Source: Escherichia phage ECP2301. From it: a stretch of 64,000 nt of DNA. The translations under genes and the position numbers were made by a program. This document shows positions 2,428-38,559 of the stretch, piece by piece (positions within the stretch are counted from its first letter, which is position 1; every line of letters starts with the position of its first letter). Location of the stretch: the sequence record OR880646.1; one strand, written 5' to 3'. Under the pieces are notes generated by a model that was not told where the DNA came from, did not search any database, and was given only the letters and a program-made list of their open reading frames with translations.

Positions 2428-2449
2428 AAAGGGCCGAAGCCCTTTATTT
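2428..2449 (-). other. RNA hairpin with UUCG tetraloop (GGGC-UUCG-GCCC) between a-gt and 47
   Basis: Plus strand aaagggccgaagcccttt; on minus-strand RNA forms a GC stem with UUCG loop; no clean U-run. Confidence 0.5.
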
Positions 2450-3646
2450 TGTAATAATGTCAAACTGTTCTTTAAAGCAGAAGCTTGAATCTTGATGCTG
2501 ATACAAAAATTCATAAGCTTTTTCGCGTTCACGGTCATAAAGAGTTCGGTCAGATGACAGTTCTTTAATACGCTCAAATGTTGATTCCATGTCATTTTCA
2601 TCAAACCAAACGATACCGCTATCATGAGAAATTAACGGAGTATTATCAACGCGGAATTTTAAATTTTCGCCAGTAGATTTCCAAAATACTGGAATTGTTC
2701 CGCATGCACCAAGCTCGAGATGAGTATATTCTAAAGAACGTTGTAGATATTTTTTGTCCAACTTACTCAGCTGATAACCAAATCCAGATTTACTCATGCG
2801 TTCAAGCATTTCGCTATTTACATAACGGTCAAGAATTTGCGTTGGCAAATTAGGAGCAATTTTAATTTGGTCTACTTGATGAAGACGATAATACTCGTAT
2901 GGAATTCCTTTTTCTTTAATAGGAATGAACGCTGGAGAACGTTCCAGACCTTCCATAATAGTACTTAGTCCTGCAGGTTTAAGATGTTTTTCGTGAAAAT
3001 CAAACATCTGATAAAAACCTTTCCATGTAGTCGTACGACCAATCCAACGGTTGACATTCATGTTAATTTCAGAAACATCTTTCCAGTAGTTTGATCGAAC
3101 CTTCGCAATATCCATAGGAGGCTGAAAGTTGTATACAGTCGGTGCTTCTTCAATATCATCAAACAGAGAAACCGTTTCTGGATACCATTCTTTCATCAAA
3201 ACTTTATTAAAATCGCCATTATCAGAATGACTAAAAATAACATCAGCTCGACGAACAGTTTCTTCTAATCCCAAATTTCGGCGTAAAGAAAGAGAAGAAT
3301 GGTCATGTTGATAAACTACAACACGAACTGAAGGTTTAATGTTATCAATAATTTTTTTATAGTTATTAATAGTGTCTTCTTCGACTGAAGTAGCAGGAAC
3401 TGAATTGATAATTAGAATATCACAATCATTTACCAGCTTAAGTGTTTTATCGTATTCTTTTGCCAATAAAACCGGAATTGAAAATGATTTATAATCATGC
3501 GCGCAATTACGAGTAAATGATTTATCTTTAGCATAAACCAAAATTACTTCATGACCATTTTTAATAAACCAATCACGCTGCTCGAGAGAAAATTTAGTTA
3601 CACCGCAACCTTCAAGACCTCGAGCCATAAAAATGCATACTTTCAT
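2444..3646 (-). CDS. a-gt: DNA alpha-glucosyltransferase
   Basis: 400 aa, N-terminus MKVCIFMARGLEGCGVTKFSLEQRDWFIKNGHEV closely matches T4 AGT as recalled. Confidence 0.92.
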   Translation of the reverse strand: MKVCIFMARGLEGCGVTKFSLEQRDWFIKNGHEVILVYAKDKSFTRNCAHDYKSFSIPVLLAKEYDKTLKLVNDCDILIINSVPATSVEEDTINNYKKIIDNIKPSVRVVVYQHDHSSLSLRRNLGLEETVRRADVIFSHSDNGDFNKVLMKEWYPETVSLFDDIEEAPTVYNFQPPMDIAKVRSNYWKDVSEINMNVNRWIGRTTTWKGFYQMFDFHEKHLKPAGLSTIMEGLERSPAFIPIKEKGIPYEYYRLHQVDQIKIAPNLPTQILDRYVNSEMLERMSKSGFGYQLSKLDKKYLQRSLEYTHLELGACGTIPVFWKSTGENLKFRVDNTPLISHDSGIVWFDENDMESTFERIKELSSDRTLYDREREKAYEFLYQHQDSSFCFKEQFDIITK

Positions 3647-28010: not shown

Positions 28011-28340
28011 TCAATTAGAAAATAAATTTATCCAAGACTGTTCTTTAATTAAAAATGGCTCAGAATCATATGCCATTAAACTTTGGGTGATTAGTCCTTT
28101 AAAAGGACCATCAATAAATTCCATGGTAAAATATGGAATTTTATTCATTAATCTTGCATTAGGAGCAGTACACAAAACTCTGCATCCTTTGAATACACCT
28201 TTTTGTAATTTGTATTGCTTATGATAAAATTCGCTCAAGACGTTGTTATTTGCCAAAATTTCAAAATGATTCACCAATTTATTTTTAATAGTTTTTGGCG
28301 AAAAATAAAGATATTCGAAAAGCTGTGTGTCTGTCATCAT
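28011..28340 (-). CDS. hypothetical protein
   Basis: ORF track 126 aa; start moved to internal Met to avoid overlap. Confidence 0.45.
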   Translation of the reverse strand: MMTDTQLFEYLYFSPKTIKNKLVNHFEILANNNVLSEFYHKQYKLQKGVFKGCRVLCTAPNARLMNKIPYFTMEFIDGPFKGLITQSLMAYDSEPFLIKEQSWINLFSN

Positions 28341-28924
28341 TGCATTCCGATTACGAAAAACTGCGGACGAGTAATACCACCAATGCAACATTTAATATTA
28401 CAGCAGTAGTGTACAGTGTCAATATGGACGCTATAAATCTTATCCATATCAGGAGATTTAACAGGCTCATCGATTATATACAAAATCCGCGAAAGCGATA
28501 AACCTCTGAACTTGCTTCCTTTATTACCGATAAAACTACGGACAGAATCAGTAAATAAGCGGAATCGAATATCATCACTAGAATAACGAGAAAATTCTTT
28601 TTTAATGTGGCCTGCAGAAATTTTAGCGTAAGCTGAAGTATTAGAAAGAACAATAACTGTTCCACCATCATACAGCCAATTAGCAGCAAAGTTAGTCACA
28701 GCAGTTGATTTACCAGATTGACGTCCACCATCTAGTCGAAGTGTACAATATTGTTTAAGCAAGTCTTCAAATGGTGGGATATAATCGTTTTTACAAATTT
28801 CTTCTACTCTAGCATCAGAATGGTGTGTAAAAGCATTCATCAGGGATAGATAAGGGCCAGTTAAAAATGTTCTCATTTTATTATCTCTAAATTTGGGCCA
28901 TTCCATGGCGCATGAATTGTCCAT
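28337..28924 (-). CDS. P-loop NTPase-like protein
   Basis: 195 aa; Walker A GGRQSGKST and Walker B-like ILYIIDE. Confidence 0.5.
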   Translation of the reverse strand: MDNSCAMEWPKFRDNKMRTFLTGPYLSLMNAFTHHSDARVEEICKNDYIPPFEDLLKQYCTLRLDGGRQSGKSTAVTNFAANWLYDGGTVIVLSNTSAYAKISAGHIKKEFSRYSSDDIRFRLFTDSVRSFIGNKGSKFRGLSLSRILYIIDEPVKSPDMDKIYSVHIDTVHYCCNIKCCIGGITRPQFFVIGMQ

Positions 28925-29030
28925 TTTCTGTATTTACCCATTACCGCACTCAGGCTCGACCTTATTACAGGTTGGCGGGAATCCCTCATAGAATCATGAG
29001 GTCCAGCTTGTTCCCATATTTCTTATTTGC

Positions 29031-29504
29031 TTATTTGAATGATTTGACGTACTGAATAGAGCCTTTGCTATTCACGAAAGCGATTTTACCATTTTTGTTA
29101 TACATGGTAGCAGTACGCTGATAACCATAAGTTTGCTTACCAGATTGATAACCAACTAATGCAAAATTATCTTCACCCATTTTATTCTGCTTCGCGCGGA
29201 TACGTTCATGACCGTGCGCCATAAGAACCTTAGCATCGCCAGTTGAAATTGATCTACGAGTTTTTTCATCTTCAACTGTACTAACAAAGTCGTCAAATGA
29301 ATCAAATTTAGCATGAGATTTATTATACAGTTTTCCATCTACTGCATAATTATATCCCTGTACATCCATCTCAACTTCTGTACCATCATCCAATACAGCA
29401 GTGATTTTTTGACCTTTTTTAAATTTCAAAAGATCAGTAAAAGATTCAGCAATAATTTGAGAATTAATAGCTGCTTCAGTGATAAATTCTTGATATGTTT
29501 TCAT
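29031..29504 (-). CDS. internal-protein candidate with capsid targeting sequence
   Basis: 157 aa beginning MKTYQEFITEA, matching the T4 IPIII CTS MKTYQEFIAE as recalled; late promoter upstream. Confidence 0.6.
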   Translation of the reverse strand: MKTYQEFITEAAINSQIIAESFTDLLKFKKGQKITAVLDDGTEVEMDVQGYNYAVDGKLYNKSHAKFDSFDDFVSTVEDEKTRRSISTGDAKVLMAHGHERIRAKQNKMGEDNFALVGYQSGKQTYGYQRTATMYNKNGKIAFVNSKGSIQYVKSFK

Positions 29505-29513
29505 GTGTTTCCT

Positions 29514-29930
29514 TTAAATGTAAATATTTTTACCGTAGTATTTATACCAGTGTGGCTTCATTAAAATTTTTTCATCGAGTCGTTGTTGACTCAATTTAAT
29601 AGCTGATTTGCATGGATTATAATCATTTTTCCATTCTGCTGGAATATCGCTGATGTCAGGAACTTCAGTATCTTTTATACTAAACCCACGTTTTAAGCAT
29701 TCCGTTATAATGTCTGATTGACGCTTTCGCAAAAATTCTAACTTATCATAAAAGAACGTAACATGACCAGAACCTAAAATAAACTCGGAAGATATTTTAA
29801 AATCTTTAACCCGTTTACCATTTGCAACATGTTTACGAACTATACCAAAAACACGCGGCAGTTCACGGTATTCTGCGATTAAATGTTGATCAGCAAGTTC
29901 AGATACTAAAGTCAAATTAATACGAGTCAT
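29514..29930 (-). CDS. denV: endonuclease V (pyrimidine-dimer DNA glycosylase)
   Basis: 138 aa; [17 protein letters not shown]...[10 protein letters not shown] as T4 endo V. Confidence 0.93.
29539..29546 (-). promoter_or_regulatory. late promoter (TATAAATA) inside 3' end of denV, upstream of internal-protein gene
   Basis: Plus tatttata; minus TATAAATA about 35 nt upstream of start at 29504. Confidence 0.45.
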
Positions 29931-29953
29931 TTTATCCCTCCAAGTAACTGTGA

Positions 29954-29988
29954 ATATATTATCACAATTCTAGGAGAAAGTAAACAAC
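29954..29988 (-). promoter_or_regulatory. early promoter for denV
   Basis: Minus strand GTTTACtttctcctagaattgTGaTAATAT. Confidence 0.55.
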
Positions 29989-29989
29989 T

Positions 29990-30520
<531 letters not shown>

Positions 30521-34339: not shown

Positions 34340-34903
34340 TTATTTATCTAGTTTAGTTATTATAGCTTCTGCAGCAGCTTTTAGCTTAGATGCGGTGTTA
34401 ATACGATTTTTAATTTCAGTATACGCATCGCCAAGAACATCAAGGCTATCAGAATAAACACTTACACTATTGCGTTCGCTATTTGAAATAGAACCTTTAG
34501 TTTTGCGGTCAAAATCGGTGTACACGTCTTGAAGATCGCGGGCTGCCTTCTTTGCATCATCCAATGCATCAAGAGCTTTATTCAAAGCATTAACGTATTT
34601 TTTAGTGTCGAACATATTCTTAGAAATTTTAACAGGTGCGCGTTCAGGAGTAGCTAACACAGATTTAGGAACCTGAGCGCCAGATGCCAATTTCTTAGAA
34701 ATTTTGAAAAATGCTTTATTGAATTTATTTTCTTGACTCATTGTAAAAGAACTATTATCGATGTTGTACATTTCAATAGCTTTAGCTTTCCACTTAAGAA
34801 AATCGCCGCGGTCTTTTGGGTCCAATTGGAAGAATACTTTAGTAAGATCTGCTTCAGATGGTAATTTTGCTGCTTCGGTTAAAAATTCGGCATAGGTTTT
34901 CAT
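34340..34903 (-). CDS. internal-protein candidate with capsid targeting sequence
   Basis: 187 aa beginning MKTYAEFLTEA. Confidence 0.55.
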   Translation of the reverse strand: MKTYAEFLTEAAKLPSEADLTKVFFQLDPKDRGDFLKWKAKAIEMYNIDNSSFTMSQENKFNKAFFKISKKLASGAQVPKSVLATPERAPVKISKNMFDTKKYVNALNKALDALDDAKKAARDLQDVYTDFDRKTKGSISNSERNSVSVYSDSLDVLGDAYTEIKNRINTASKLKAAAEAIITKLDK

Positions 34904-35028: not shown

Positions 35029-35502
35029 TTATTTGATTTGTTTAGCAGACCAAATGCGGTCTTTAATAATTTTTTGGATGTCTTCAACATACTCAAGAGA
35101 GTGAACATGTGGATTATCTTTGAAACTATAAGCACGGGCTAACTTTTGGCCTTCGGTTTTGATTACTAAAAGCTCTTTAAGGATAGCTTCATATTTAGCG
35201 ATAATTCCTTTAACGATATTTTTTTCTTGTGCCGCTTTAGGATCTGCTTTAGGAGCAGGTTTACCCGAAGGCTTTGCAAAAGCAGCGCCAGTAGCAACTA
35301 AACTTTTCCAGGCCATACTAACTGCATTTCCCGTAAATCCTTCTGCTTTCATGTCGCGAGCAAATTGGAATCGTGATTCGTCAGAAGCATCTTTATAAGA
35401 ATATTTACCCGCTGCAATGGCTGCTTTTGCGACAGCTTGAATTTCGGTGCTAGATGCTTCATTTAACACCGCTTCATTTAAAAATTGAGCATATGATTTC
35501 AT
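35029..35502 (-). CDS. internal-protein candidate with capsid targeting sequence
   Basis: 157 aa beginning MKSYAQFLNEA; Ala/Lys-rich. Confidence 0.55.
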   Translation of the reverse strand: MKSYAQFLNEAVLNEASSTEIQAVAKAAIAAGKYSYKDASDESRFQFARDMKAEGFTGNAVSMAWKSLVATGAAFAKPSGKPAPKADPKAAQEKNIVKGIIAKYEAILKELLVIKTEGQKLARAYSFKDNPHVHSLEYVEDIQKIIKDRIWSAKQIK

Positions 35503-35542: not shown

Positions 35543-35550
35543 TATTTATA
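35543..35550 (-). promoter_or_regulatory. late promoter (TATAAATA) upstream of internal-protein gene
   Basis: Plus tatttata. Confidence 0.5.
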
Positions 35551-36242: not shown

Positions 36243-36259
36243 ATTTTCCTCACTTAATT

Positions 36260-36335
36260 GGTCGAGGCAGTAGGGATCGAACCTACGACCTAGGACTTAG
36301 AAGGTCCTTGCTCTTCCTTCTGAGCTATGCCCCGT
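36260..36335 (-). tRNA. tRNA-Arg (anticodon UCU)
   Basis: Hand-folded cloverleaf: anticodon loop CUUCUAA, T-loop GGTTCGATCC, CCA encoded. Confidence 0.8.
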
Positions 36336-36339
36336 AATT

Positions 36340-36415
36340 GGGGTGACCGATGGGAGTCGAACCCATGACTACGAGAATCACAATCTCGAGTTCTACCAAC
36401 TGAACTACGGCCACA
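36340..36415 (-). tRNA. tRNA-His (anticodon GUG), no encoded G-1
   Basis: Acceptor GTGGCCG/CGGTCAC, anticodon loop TTGTGAT, discriminator C73, CCA encoded; base at -1 is U. Confidence 0.7.
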
Positions 36416-36529
36416 TTAATACCTACTCCAACAATCAAGATGTCTTCACACGAAATTAAGAGAAGAGTGATCAGTTCAACCCCTATAATCGCGTCAAGTA
36501 GATATTAATGTGACAGTTGTCACAAATTT

Positions 36530-36604
36530 GGCGGACGTGATAGGATTCGAACCTATAACCAATCGCTTAACAGGCGATCGCTCTGCCATTGAGCTACACA
36601 TCCA
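36530..36604 (-). tRNA. tRNA-Asn (anticodon GUU)
   Basis: Acceptor GGATGTG/CACGTCC, anticodon loop CTGTTAA, T-loop GGTTCGAATCC, CCA encoded. Confidence 0.75.
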
Positions 36605-36608
36605 AATT

Positions 36609-36695
36609 GGTGGGGAGTGGTGGAGTCGAACCACCCGAGTCGCAATGACAATGGATTTACAGTCCACACCGCTACCTATACGGGATAACTCCCCA
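36609..36695 (-). tRNA. tRNA-Tyr (anticodon GUA), type II with long variable arm
   Basis: Acceptor GGGGAGT/ACTCCCC, anticodon loop CTGTAAA, T-loop GGTTCGACTCC, CCA encoded, 87 nt. Confidence 0.7.
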
Positions 36696-36704
36696 AATTA
36701 ATTT

Positions 36705-36779
36705 GGTGGCCCTGGGTGGAATTGAACCACCATCTGGCGATTATGAGTCGCTTGCTTGAACCTTCCAGCTACAGGGCCT
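36705..36779 (-). tRNA. tRNA with anticodon CAU (Ile2-type as in T4, or Met)
   Basis: Acceptor GGCCCTG/CAGGGCC, anticodon loop CTCATAA, T-loop GGTTCAATTCC, CCA encoded. Confidence 0.7.
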
Positions 36780-36780
36780 T

Positions 36781-36856
36781 GGTGCTGATTGACGGAATTG
36801 AACCGCCGACCTTCTCATTACAAGTGAGTTGCTCTACCTACTGAGCTAAATCAGCA
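36781..36856 (-). tRNA. tRNA-Thr (anticodon UGU)
   Basis: Acceptor GCTGATT/AATCAGC, anticodon loop CTTGTAA, CCA encoded. Confidence 0.8.
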
Positions 36857-36861
36857 AAACT

Positions 36862-36951
36862 GGCGGAGGCGATAGGATTTGAACCTATGAGTCGCCGGAG
36901 CGACTGCCGGTTTTCAAGACCGGTGCATTAAACCACTCTGCCACGCCTCCA
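36862..36951 (-). tRNA. tRNA-Ser (anticodon UGA), type II
   Basis: Acceptor GGAGGCG/CGCCTCC, anticodon loop CTTGAAA, long variable arm, CCA encoded, 90 nt. Confidence 0.8.
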
Positions 36952-36953
36952 GT

Positions 36954-37027
36954 CTCCATACAAGGATTTGAACCTTGGACCTCCTGATCCCAAATCAGGC
37001 GCTCTACCAAACTGAGCTACACGGAGT
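36954..37027 (-). tRNA. tRNA-Pro (anticodon UGG), CCA not encoded
   Basis: Anticodon loop TTTGGGA; 2 nt upstream of tRNA-Ser, forming a Pro-Ser dimer as in T4. Confidence 0.8.
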
Positions 37028-37036
37028 AAATTAAAT

Positions 37037-37111
<75 letters not shown>

Positions 37112-37116
37112 AATTT

Positions 37117-37203
37117 GGTGCGAGAAGTGGGACTCGAACCCACAAGGAAATCATTCCGCAGCATTTTAAGTGCTGTGCCTTTACCAATTTGGCCATTCTC
37201 GCG
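37117..37203 (-). tRNA. tRNA-Leu (anticodon UAA), type II
   Basis: Acceptor GCGAGAA/TTCTCGC, anticodon loop CTTAAAA, long variable arm, CCA encoded. Confidence 0.8.
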
Positions 37204-37204
37204 C

Positions 37205-37277
37205 TGGGAATAAAGGACTCGAACCTTTGCATCCTGGAATCAAAATCCAGTGCCTTACCAACTTGGCTAATTCCCAA
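37205..37277 (-). tRNA. tRNA-Gln (anticodon UUG), CCA not encoded
   Basis: Acceptor TGGGAAT/ATTCCCA, anticodon loop TTTTGAT; 1 nt upstream of tRNA-Leu (Gln-Leu dimer as in T4). Confidence 0.8.
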
Positions 37278-38255: not shown

Positions 38256-38311
38256 GGTAATAGTATCACAACTAAAACCCTATGTAAACAACTTTGTGAA
38301 ATTATTTTAAA
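38256..38311 (-). promoter_or_regulatory. early promoter with duplicated 31-nt upstream block
   Basis: Minus strand GTTTACatagggttttagttgTGaTACTAT; upstream block atgtaaacaactttgtgaaattattttaaatc repeated at 38609-38639. Confidence 0.5.
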
Positions 38312-38559
38312 TCTTCTAATCGTTTCTTCATCTTAGAACCGTTCTTAGCGATTTCGCCTGCATCTGAGCATAATGCTAAAAGTGCTTTAACTTTAGTTTG
38401 GTCTCCTTTAAAAGATGAAGGATCGACTGCAGCAGCAAGTTCTTTAATACGAGAGAAAAGACGCTCAGCTTCAGCTAAAGCCATTCCAAGCTTTACTTCC
38501 ATACCGTGGGAAGATTCAGTGATAGTAGTTTTTGTAGCAAACTCTTTGAAAGTTTTCAT
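38302..38559 (-). CDS. small internal-protein-like ORF (ipI position; weak CTS-like N-terminus)
   Basis: 85 aa beginning MKTFKEFATK; sits between tRNA cluster and 57B where T4 has ipI. Confidence 0.4.
   Translation of the reverse strand: MKTFKEFATKTTITESSHGMEVKLGMALAEAERLFSRIKELAAAVDPSSFKGDQTKVKALLALCSDAGEIAKNGSKMKKRLEDLK

What the first reader, a model, noticed from the sequence alone, without database searches (positions are those of the whole stretch)
29031..29504. Third CTS-bearing internal-protein candidate adjacent to denV, with its own late promoter inside denV
The 157-aa ORF begins MKTYQEFITEA, differing from the T4 IPIII targeting sequence at one position, but the remainder does not resemble IPII/IPIII as I recall them. 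A TATAAATA late promoter lies within the 3' end of denV just upstream. It is likely a novel injected protein.
Basis: partly seen in the sequence, partly recalled or inferred. Interest (0 to 1): 0.55.

Follow-up and report, generated by a model that had tools for sequence, protein, structure and literature searches.

The report
Known T-even internal protein Ip4
The ORF is the already named internal head protein gene ip4 of T2-type phages: it very probably makes a small protein that is packed into the phage head and injected with the DNA, but its target in the host is still unknown.

Summary
A 157-codon ORF lies at 29031-29504 on the minus strand. It starts MKTYQEFITEA, one residue different from the T4 IPII/IPIII capsid targeting sequence (CTS). 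A TATAAATA sits 34 nt upstream, inside the 3' end of denV.

The protein is not novel. It is Ip4:
- 97-99% identical to Ip4 of phages K3, T2 and RB32, a gene named in the 1990s.
- Full-length match to Pfam DUF7412 (1e-95) and PHROG 3155 "internal virion protein".
- Present in about 470 deposited phage genomes.

The most likely mechanism is prohead targeting through the CTS, trimming by the gp21 protease, and injection with the DNA to block a host defence. Published tests of ip4 against GmrSD restriction variants found no target.

The TATAAATA is weak evidence for a dedicated promoter. It is encoded by the conserved denV residues W-Y-K-Y and is expected about 62% of the time from codon usage alone.

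Already known; low interest.

The parts
29031..29504 (-). ip4 coding sequence (157 aa plus stop); ortholog of Ip4 of T2/K3/RB32/RB70
   Evidence: ORF. Pfam DUF7412 1e-95 over 1-157. PHROG 3155 'internal virion protein' 1.8e-101. 470 phage records, 306 of them at >=95% identity. BFVD top hit is Ip4 of K3 at 97% identity. dN/dS 0.017 against T2/RB32.
29475..29504 (-). Capsid targeting sequence, residues 1-10 (MKTYQEFITE), ending in the I-x-E motif cut by the gp21 prohead protease
   Evidence: 9 of 10 identical to the T4 IPII/IPIII CTS. The experimentally mapped determinants are all retained: residues 4 and 7 for targeting, 8 and 10 for processing (PMC9026906). The leader is conserved in all full-length homologs, including relatives at 35-37% identity.
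29445..29453 (-). Second candidate gp21 cleavage site, I18-A19-E20, followed by S21 (inferred)
   Evidence: E20 is nearly invariant, with I/M/L at the -2 position across the family. T4 IP propeptides are 10-19 residues long (PMC9026906). Cleavage itself was not tested.
29509..29515 (-). Shine-Dalgarno AAGGAAA of ip4; it overlaps the denV stop codon and is part of the conserved internal-protein leader cassette AAAATATTTACATTTAAAGGAAACA
   Evidence: Sequence. The same leader precedes T4 ipII and ipIII and the T2 and RB32 ip4 genes.
29539..29546 (-). TATAAATA late-promoter consensus inside the denV 3' end, 34 nt upstream of the ip4 ATG
   Evidence: Also present in IME339 and one IMG/VR relative. 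It is created by the denV codons TGG TAT AAA TAC; T4 denV has TAC and no motif. It is not associated with a downstream internal-protein gene in other phages. Function not shown.
29514..29930 (-). denV (endonuclease V); its last codons (N-I-Y-I-stop) are supplied by the internal-protein leader cassette
   Evidence: Pfam Pyr_excise and PHROG 1183. The tail is KNIYI* here and KAIYA* in T4.
29931..29989 (-). e-denV intergenic promoter-plus-stem-loop cassette (PeSL type): GTTTAC, 16 nt, TGtGATAAT early promoter overlapping a strong hairpin that pairs with the denV Shine-Dalgarno
   Evidence: Fold dG -23.7 kcal/mol, z -5.35, 0 of 200 shuffles as stable. Homologous to the cassette upstream of T4 ipIII. 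PeSL concept from PMC4122927.
30498..30518 (-). Two TATAAATA late promoters upstream of lysozyme gene e; an alternative source of late ip4 transcripts by read-through
   Evidence: The same pair is the only TATAAATA in the T4 e-ipIII-ipII-denV region.
28977..29015 (-). Hairpin immediately downstream of ip4; the same element follows denV in T4, marking the 3' boundary of the inserted ip4 module
   Evidence: Alignment of downstream flanks and fold. There is no U-run, so it is not a canonical intrinsic terminator.
28337..28924 (-). vs.8 homolog (P-loop protein), the next gene downstream
   Evidence: PHROG 1488 7e-79. The leader and N-terminus match T4 vs.8.

Best explanation
The ORF is ip4, one of the interchangeable internal protein (IP) genes of T-even phages.

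**Proposed mechanism**
1. The gene is transcribed early from the promoter-hairpin cassette downstream of e. Late transcription comes from the e late promoters and/or the TATAAATA inside denV.
2. The 10-residue N-terminal capsid targeting sequence MKTYQEFITE docks the protein onto the scaffolding core of the prohead.
3. The gp21 prohead protease removes the leader after E10, and possibly again after E20. This leaves a basic protein of 137-147 residues (15.5-16.5 kDa, pI 9.1-9.3) free inside the head.
4. The protein is ejected into the cell with the glucosyl-hmC DNA.
5. There it most likely acts stoichiometrically, as a binding inhibitor rather than an enzyme, against a host defence that attacks incoming modified DNA. 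All three characterised T4 IPs work this way. Its target is not any of the GmrSD variants tested so far.

**Shown here**
- Gene identity and family membership.
- An intact CTS with all mapped determinants.
- Location in the polymorphic IP locus.
- Strong purifying selection.
- A confident orphan fold without catalytic-type conserved residues.

**Inferred**
- Packaging, cleavage and injection (probability about 0.8).
- An anti-defence role (about 0.5).
For: **Identity**
- Pfam DUF7412 1e-95 and PHROG 3155 1.8e-101, both full length.
- 98.7% identity to T2 and RB32 Ip4, and 97% to K3 Ip4, UniProt Q38388.

**CTS**
- 9 of 10 identical to T4 IPIII/IPII.
- Y4, F7, I8 and E10 are the residues shown by mutagenesis to govern targeting and processing. 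The first 10 residues of IPIII alone suffice to package foreign proteins (PMC9026906).
- The leader is retained in every full-length homolog. This includes relatives at 35-37% identity (MNFEQFLNE|S, MNFKDFLNE|S) found in an exhaustive HMM search of 1.84 billion proteins.

**Locus**
- It sits between e and vs.8, the same hyperplastic locus that holds ipIII and ipII in T4. It uses the same leader cassette.

**Real and constrained gene**
- pN 0.005 against pS 0.23-0.28 versus T2/RB32; dN/dS 0.12-0.16 versus Salmonella and Klebsiella phage orthologs.

**Properties**
- The mature protein is basic, like T4 IPs.
- AF2 model of residues 21-157: pLDDT 92.7, pTM 0.86.
- The His-Gly-His motif is not conserved in distant relatives, and the invariant residues are G/K/N/A/L/Q/Y/T, so nothing suggests catalysis.

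**Late expression**
- TATAAATA 34 nt upstream here.
- A distant relative has a terminator followed by two TATAAATA directly upstream of its gene.

**Functional analogy**
- Ip1, Ip2 and Ip3 each inhibit a distinct GmrSD type IV restriction enzyme (PMC12373910).
- This phage encodes the DNA alpha-glucosyltransferase, so its DNA is a substrate for such enzymes.
Against: - No direct evidence for Ip4 in virions or for its cleavage was found in the literature I could search.
- ip4-10 were tested against GmrSD variants with no reproducible inhibition (PMC12373910, Supplementary Fig. 9).
- T2 carries ip4 yet is restricted by GmrSD-ECOR21 and GmrSD-ECOR17, so any anti-defence target is unidentified.
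- dN/dS of 0.017 is unusually low for an arms-race effector.
Confidence: 0.78

Rival explanations
1. Ip4 is packaged but is mainly a structural or assembly component of the head. It would be a basic protein that binds or neutralises DNA, or assists core and prohead assembly as reported for IPIII, with no specific host target.
For: - The mature protein is basic (pI 9.1-9.3).
- Purifying selection is very strong, which is atypical for arms-race proteins.
- It resembles small beta-barrels of the Sm/SH3/Tudor/bL19 type, which often bind nucleic acids.
- IPIII mutants slow head assembly and reduce burst size (PMC9026906).
- No defence target was found in tests against GmrSD variants.
Against: - T4 lacks ip4 entirely and assembles heads normally.
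- IP genes are dispensable in T4, and all three have now been assigned specific anti-restriction targets.
- Presence or absence of ip4 varies among close relatives.
Confidence: 0.15
2. The CTS-like leader is only a relic of cassette recombination at the IP locus. The protein is not packaged and acts inside the infected cell as an ordinary early protein.
For: - The leader and its 5' flank belong to a shared recombination cassette that also precedes ipII and ipIII.
- The gene lies downstream of an early promoter.
- No virion proteomics for Ip4 was found.
Against: - The leader is kept at the protein level, with different nucleotide sequence, in relatives only 35-37% identical in the mature part.
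- Every experimentally mapped targeting and processing residue is intact.
- The first 10 residues of IPIII are sufficient to package unrelated proteins, so a protein carrying them would be packaged whenever it is made late.
Confidence: 0.05
3. The ORF is a chance open frame and not a gene.
For: None beyond its small size.
Against: - Full-length family matches.
- 470 genomes carry it.
- dN/dS 0.017-0.16.
- A good Shine-Dalgarno sequence.
- A confident structure prediction.
Confidence: 0.01

Closest known systems
Ip4 (ipIV) of phages T2, K3, RB70 and RB32 (UniProt Q38388; GenBank ABI94947); Pfam DUF7412; PHROG 3155 'internal virion protein'
   Same: Same protein: 97-99% identity over all 157 residues. 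It has the same leader, the same position downstream of lysozyme e and upstream of vs.8, and the same downstream hairpin.
   Different: Here denV lies between e and ip4, and the ip4 leader cassette supplies the last codons of denV. In T2 and RB32 there is no denV, and ip4 directly follows the e promoter-hairpin cassette. There are two amino-acid differences from T2/RB32.
T4 IPIII and IPII (internal proteins at the e-denV locus)
   Same: Near-identical capsid targeting sequence, the same 5' leader cassette, the same hyperplastic locus, and a small basic protein. The expected route is the same: prohead core, gp21 trimming, then injection.
   Different: The mature parts are unrelated in sequence. 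Gene order differs: T4 has e-ipIII-ipII-denV, and this phage has e-denV-ip4. Ip2 and Ip3 have known GmrSD targets, while Ip4 has none.
T4 IPI* (Ip1), injected inhibitor of the GmrSD type IV restriction enzyme of E. coli CT596
   Same: It belongs to the same class of CTS-led, protease-trimmed, injected small proteins, and it is the model for the proposed mode of action.

Membership tests
Ip4 / DUF7412 / PHROG 3155 | Full-length match to the family profile above the curated threshold | tested here: met
   Pfam PF24183: 318.6 bits against a cut-off of 27, covering residues 1-157 of 158 profile positions. PHROG 3155: 337.9 bits.
Ip4 / DUF7412 / PHROG 3155 | Orthology to the proteins originally named Ip4 (T2, K3, RB70, RB32) | tested here: met
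   98.7% to T2 and RB32 Ip4 and 97% to K3 Ip4. The flanking genes e and vs.8 are syntenic.
T-even internal proteins (CTS-bearing IPs) | N-terminal capsid targeting sequence with the mapped determinants (aromatic at 4, F at 7, I/L at 8, E at 10) | tested here: met
   MKTYQEFITE against the T4 sequence MKTYQEFIAE. The only change is at position 9, which is not a mapped determinant.
T-even internal proteins (CTS-bearing IPs) | Location in one of the two polymorphic IP loci, flanked by promoter/stem-loop cassettes | tested here: met
   It lies between e and vs.8, with a PeSL cassette upstream of denV, the shared IP leader, and the shared downstream hairpin.
T-even internal proteins (CTS-bearing IPs) | Small basic mature protein that is variably present among close relatives | tested here: met
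   Mature protein is 15.5-16.5 kDa with pI 9.1-9.3. It is absent from T4 and present in T2, RB32 and about 470 records.
T-even internal proteins (CTS-bearing IPs) | Physical presence in the virion, gp21 cleavage, and injection with the DNA | not testable with these tools
   This needs virion mass spectrometry or N-terminal sequencing. No such data for Ip4 turned up in the searchable literature.
Injected GmrSD (type IV restriction) inhibitors: Ip1*, Ip2, Ip3 | Homology of the mature domain to a known inhibitor | tested here: not met
   [not shown]
Injected GmrSD (type IV restriction) inhibitors: Ip1*, Ip2, Ip3 | Demonstrated inhibition of a GmrSD enzyme | not testable with these tools
   Published tests of ip4-10 against GmrSD variants gave no reproducible inhibition (PMC12373910, Supplementary Fig. 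9). T2, which carries ip4, is restricted by GmrSD-ECOR21 and GmrSD-ECOR17.
T4 late gene with its own gp55-type promoter | TATAAATA at a suitable distance upstream, and maintained because of the downstream gene | tested here: inconclusive
   The motif is present 34 nt upstream. However, it is expected with probability about 0.62 from W-Y-K-Y and local codon usage. It is also found in denV tails with no internal-protein gene downstream, and it is absent upstream of ip4 in five other contexts. A distant relative does have two intergenic TATAAATA upstream.

The most novel reading that the evidence does not exclude
Ip4 is an injected inhibitor with an orphan fold. It would disarm a host defence that is not one of the GmrSD variants tested so far: either another modification-dependent nuclease or an unrelated early-acting system. 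Its unusually strong sequence conservation would then reflect a conserved host target. Because phage T2 carries it, the idea can be tested directly.
Probability: 0.4. Interest if true: 0.5.

Novelty: already known. Interest (0 to 1): 0.15.

Why it matters
As a discovery it adds little. The gene has been named since the 1990s, has a Pfam and a PHROG family, and sits in phage T2.

The open question is its function. It is a highly conserved, very probably injected protein of a classic model phage, and its target remains unknown even after the 2025 work that assigned GmrSD targets to Ip1-3.

The useful by-products here are a confident structural model of the mature domain, evidence that it is probably not an enzyme, and a caution that the TATAAATA inside denV is largely explained by coding constraints.

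Tried and rejected
1. **T2/RB32 as a denV deletion.** I first read the e-ip4 junction in RB32 and T2 as a deletion of denV that left short remnants. I rejected this after seeing that the same sequence is the standard promoter-hairpin plus IP leader cassette that precedes T4 ipIII and ipII.

2. **A selected, dedicated late promoter.** I tested this by scanning IMG/VR for denV tails and by comparing ip4 upstream regions in 9 loci. There is no association between the motif and a downstream internal-protein gene. Codon usage alone predicts the motif with probability about 0.62.

3. **Remote homology or fold-based function.**
   - PDB sequence searches with the single protein and with the family profile found nothing. 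The SAKe6AE hit is a repeat artefact with no significant single domain.
   - NCBIfam gave nothing above threshold.
   - Foldseek against BFVD returned only Ip4 itself.
   - The afdb50 library was unavailable.

4. **HGH motif (residues 97-99) as a metal or catalytic site.** Rejected because it is not conserved in the divergent relatives.

5. **Literature.**
   - Repoila 1994 (PMC395341) and Bair 2007 (PMC1868451) are not held.
   - Searches for Ip4, ipIV or DUF7412 together with virion proteomics found no direct evidence of packaging.

6. **Rfam and the ip4-vs.8 spacer.** Rfam found only tRNAs in the window. The conserved ip4-vs.8 spacer folds no better than shuffled sequence (z -0.21).

Full report
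**1. Observation**

- The window carries a 157-codon ATG-started ORF at 29031..29504 on the minus strand. Its product begins MKTYQEFITEAAINSQIIAESF.
- On that strand the gene order is:
  - lysozyme e, 29990-30484;
  - denV, 29514-29930;
  - this ORF;
  - a vs.8 homolog, 28337-28924;
  - a 126-aa ORF;
  - vs.6/GrcA.

- T4 IPIII and IPII both begin MKTYQEFIAEA. The leader therefore differs at one position, A9T.
- A six-frame scan shows this is the best CTS match in the window at 9 of 10. Three weaker CTS-like ORFs lie at 34340-34903, 35029-35502 and 38302-38559.
- TATAAATA is on the minus strand at 29546..29539. It is inside denV, 34 nt before the ATG.
The finding did not state the strand.

**2. 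Identity**

- The protein matches Pfam DUF7412 over its full length (1e-95). It also matches PHROG 3155, 'internal virion protein' (1.8e-101).
- tblastn finds it in 470 deposited phage genomes:
  - 306 are at >=95% identity, in Tequatrovirus phages of E. coli, Shigella and Yersinia, including T2, RB3 and RB32;
  - about 160 are at 60-80% identity, in Klebsiella and Salmonella T4-like phages.
- Several annotations name it:
  - RB32 calls it 'Ip4 ... similar to T2, RB70 Ip4';
  - Kha5h calls it 'ipIV: internal head protein 4';
  - the only significant match in the viral structure library is UniProt Q38388, 'Ip4 [Enterobacteria phage K3]', at 97% identity;
  - a 2025 preprint refers to T2 gene ipIV.
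- Reviews attribute the set of additional CTS-bearing IPs in T-even phages to Repoila et al. 1994. I could not read that paper itself.
- Only the leader is shared with T4 IPIII and IPII.

**3. A real, constrained and phylogenetically narrow gene**

- Against T2 and RB32 the gene shows 23-28% synonymous but only 0.5% non-synonymous differences (dN/dS about 0.017).
- Against orthologs from Salmonella phage STML-198 and Klebsiella phage KpV477, dN/dS is 0.12-0.16.
- An exhaustive profile search of 1.84 billion representative proteins found only the main cluster plus three divergent full-length relatives at 35-37% identity.
- Two of the three start with a CTS-like leader ending in L-N-E|S (MNFEQFLNE|S, MNFKDFLNE|S); the third has FSLNE|S after a longer N-terminus.
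- Retention of the leader across that divergence argues that the mature domain is always delivered through the prohead route.

**4. Capsid targeting and processing (inferred from T4 experiments)**

- In T4, the first 10 residues of IPIII suffice to package foreign proteins.
- Residues 4 and 7 govern targeting, and residues 8 and 10 govern gp21 processing.
- IP propeptides are 10-19 residues long, and each IP is present at about 360 copies per head (PMC9026906).
- Ip4 keeps Y4, F7, I8 and E10.
- A second, family-conserved hydrophobic-x-E site (I18-A19-E20|S21) could give a 20-residue propeptide.
- The mature protein would be 137-147 residues, 15.5-16.5 kDa, with pI 9.1-9.3. It is basic like IPII and IPIII.

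**5. Structure**

- The full-length model was mediocre (pLDDT 71.8).
- The model of residues 21-157, built with the divergent relatives in the alignment, is confident (pLDDT 92.7, pTM 0.86).
- It consists of beta-strands that form a small barrel, interrupted by a three-helix insertion.
- PDB sequence searches are empty.
- The H-G-H motif is not conserved in distant relatives. The invariant residues (G, K, N, A, L, Q, Y, T) do not suggest catalysis.
- I therefore favour a binding protein over an enzyme.

**6. Locus architecture**

- The three arrangements compare as follows:

| Phage | Gene order |
|---|---|
| T4 | e-ipIII-ipII-denV-vs.8 |
| T2 and RB32 | e-ip4-vs.8, no denV |
| This phage, IME339 and about 164 records | e-denV-ip4-vs.8 |

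- The e-denV spacer is a promoter-plus-hairpin cassette. It has GTTTAC, 16 nt, then TGtGATAAT. The fold has dG -23.7 kcal/mol and z -5.35, and it pairs with the denV Shine-Dalgarno.
- This cassette is homologous to the one upstream of T4 ipIII. It is of the PeSL type proposed to mediate module shuffling (PMC4122927).
- The leader AAAATATTTACATTTAAAGGAAACA-ATG precedes T4 ipII and RB32 ip4, and a shorter form of it precedes T4 ipIII and T2 ip4.
- Here that leader also supplies the last codons of denV, giving KNIYI* instead of KAIYA* in T4.
- The sequence after the ip4 stop is the same hairpin and vs.8 leader that follow denV in T4.
- ip4 is therefore a cassette inserted between denV and its former 3' flank.
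- A denV-like gene also precedes the DUF7412 gene on a distant metagenomic contig.

**7. The late promoter claim**

- The motif is well placed. Only 14 TATAAATA occur in 128 kb of both strands.
- However, it is encoded by denV codons TGG-TAT-AAA-TAC for the conserved W-Y-K-Y.
- With this genome's codon usage (TAT 78%, AAA 80%) it is expected with probability about 0.62.
- T4 denV uses TAC and lacks the motif.
- In IMG/VR denV tails, the TAT form occurs where no internal-protein gene follows. The TAC form occurs upstream of ip4 and of another CTS ORF.
- ip4 has no upstream TATAAATA in T2, RB32, L005, STML-198, L007 or KpV477.
- T4 ipIII and ipII also lack one. The only late promoters in that T4 region are the pair upstream of e, and the same pair is present here at 30498-30518.
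- In favour of late transcription as a family trait, one distant relative has a terminator followed by two TATAAATA directly upstream.
- Verdict: the motif may well fire late, but its presence is not evidence of a dedicated, selected promoter.

**8. Function**

- Ip1, Ip2 and Ip3 of T4 each inhibit one specific GmrSD type IV restriction enzyme (PMC12373910).
- This phage encodes the DNA alpha-glucosyltransferase, so its DNA is a substrate for such enzymes.
- By analogy, the most likely role for Ip4 is an injected stoichiometric inhibitor of a defence that attacks entering DNA.
- Against a simple extension of the GmrSD story:
  - the same study tested ip4-10 against GmrSD variants and found no reproducible inhibition;
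  - T2, which carries ip4, is restricted by GmrSD-ECOR21 and GmrSD-ECOR17.
- The very low dN/dS fits either a conserved host target or a structural role in the head.
- My estimates are about 0.8 for packaged and injected, about 0.5 for anti-defence, and about 0.15 for a mainly structural or DNA-associated role.

**9. Verdict**

- This is a correctly spotted but already known gene: ip4 in its denV-linked arrangement. Novelty: already known. Interest: low.
- The residual interest is the unknown target of a conserved, injected protein of model phage T2.

Noticed in passing
window 35029-35502 (-) and 34340-34903 (-): Two paralogous ORFs (157 and 187 aa, both PHROG 2280 'unknown function') start with CTS-like leaders, MKSYAQFLNEA and MKTYAEFLTEA. 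The 187-aa ORF is annotated only as 'hypothetical protein', or not annotated at all, in every row listed of its 164 matching phage records. The first follows a terminator hairpin plus TATAAATA (35543-35550). They look like unnamed internal-protein candidates and may be more novel than Ip4.
   Followed up: partly
[not shown]
   Followed up: yes
window 29925-29995 (-): The e-denV spacer folds into a very stable hairpin (dG -23.7 kcal/mol, z -5.35) that pairs with the denV Shine-Dalgarno GGAGGG and overlaps an early-type promoter. Translation of denV may therefore depend on which transcript carries it, as I recall for T4 gene e.
   Followed up: partly
window 29514-29530 (-): The denV C-terminus is ...YYGKNIYI* here and ...YYGKAIYA* in T4. 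The last codons and the stop are supplied by the conserved IP leader cassette, which marks the recombination junction of the ip4 module.
   Followed up: yes
window 28925-29030 (-): The spacer between ip4 and vs.8 (...CCCGCCAACCTGTAATAAGGTCGAGCC...GCGGTAATGGG) is conserved in T4, T2 and RB32, and partly in Klebsiella phage KpV477. It does not fold better than shuffled sequence (z -0.21) and has no Rfam match. The reason for its conservation is unexplained.
   Followed up: partly
window 28337-28924 (-): The vs.8 homolog (PHROG 1488) has a P-loop and weak similarity to the terminase large-subunit ATPase N-terminal region (PHROG 2 at 7.9e-06; Pfam Terminase_6N at 0.023). Some GenBank records label this region 'large terminase subunit', which is probably an over-annotation.
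   Followed up: no
window 36259-37276 (-): The tRNA cluster has 11 genes (Gln, Leu, Gly, Pro, Ser, Thr, Met/Ile-CAU, Tyr, Asn, His, Arg). RB32 has eight annotated at the same locus. Tyr, Asn and His are the extra ones.
   Followed up: no
L024 139-1215; L023 89-654: On a distant metagenomic contig, a denV-like gene (Pyr_excise, weak) directly precedes a DUF7412 gene at 35% identity. This suggests that the denV-ip4 linkage is old. Another distant relative has a terminator followed by two TATAAATA upstream of its gene.
   Followed up: partly
window 2444-3646 (-): This ORF is the DNA alpha-glucosyltransferase gene (Pfam AGT, 4.7e-234), so the phage DNA is expected to be glucosyl-hmC.
   Followed up: no
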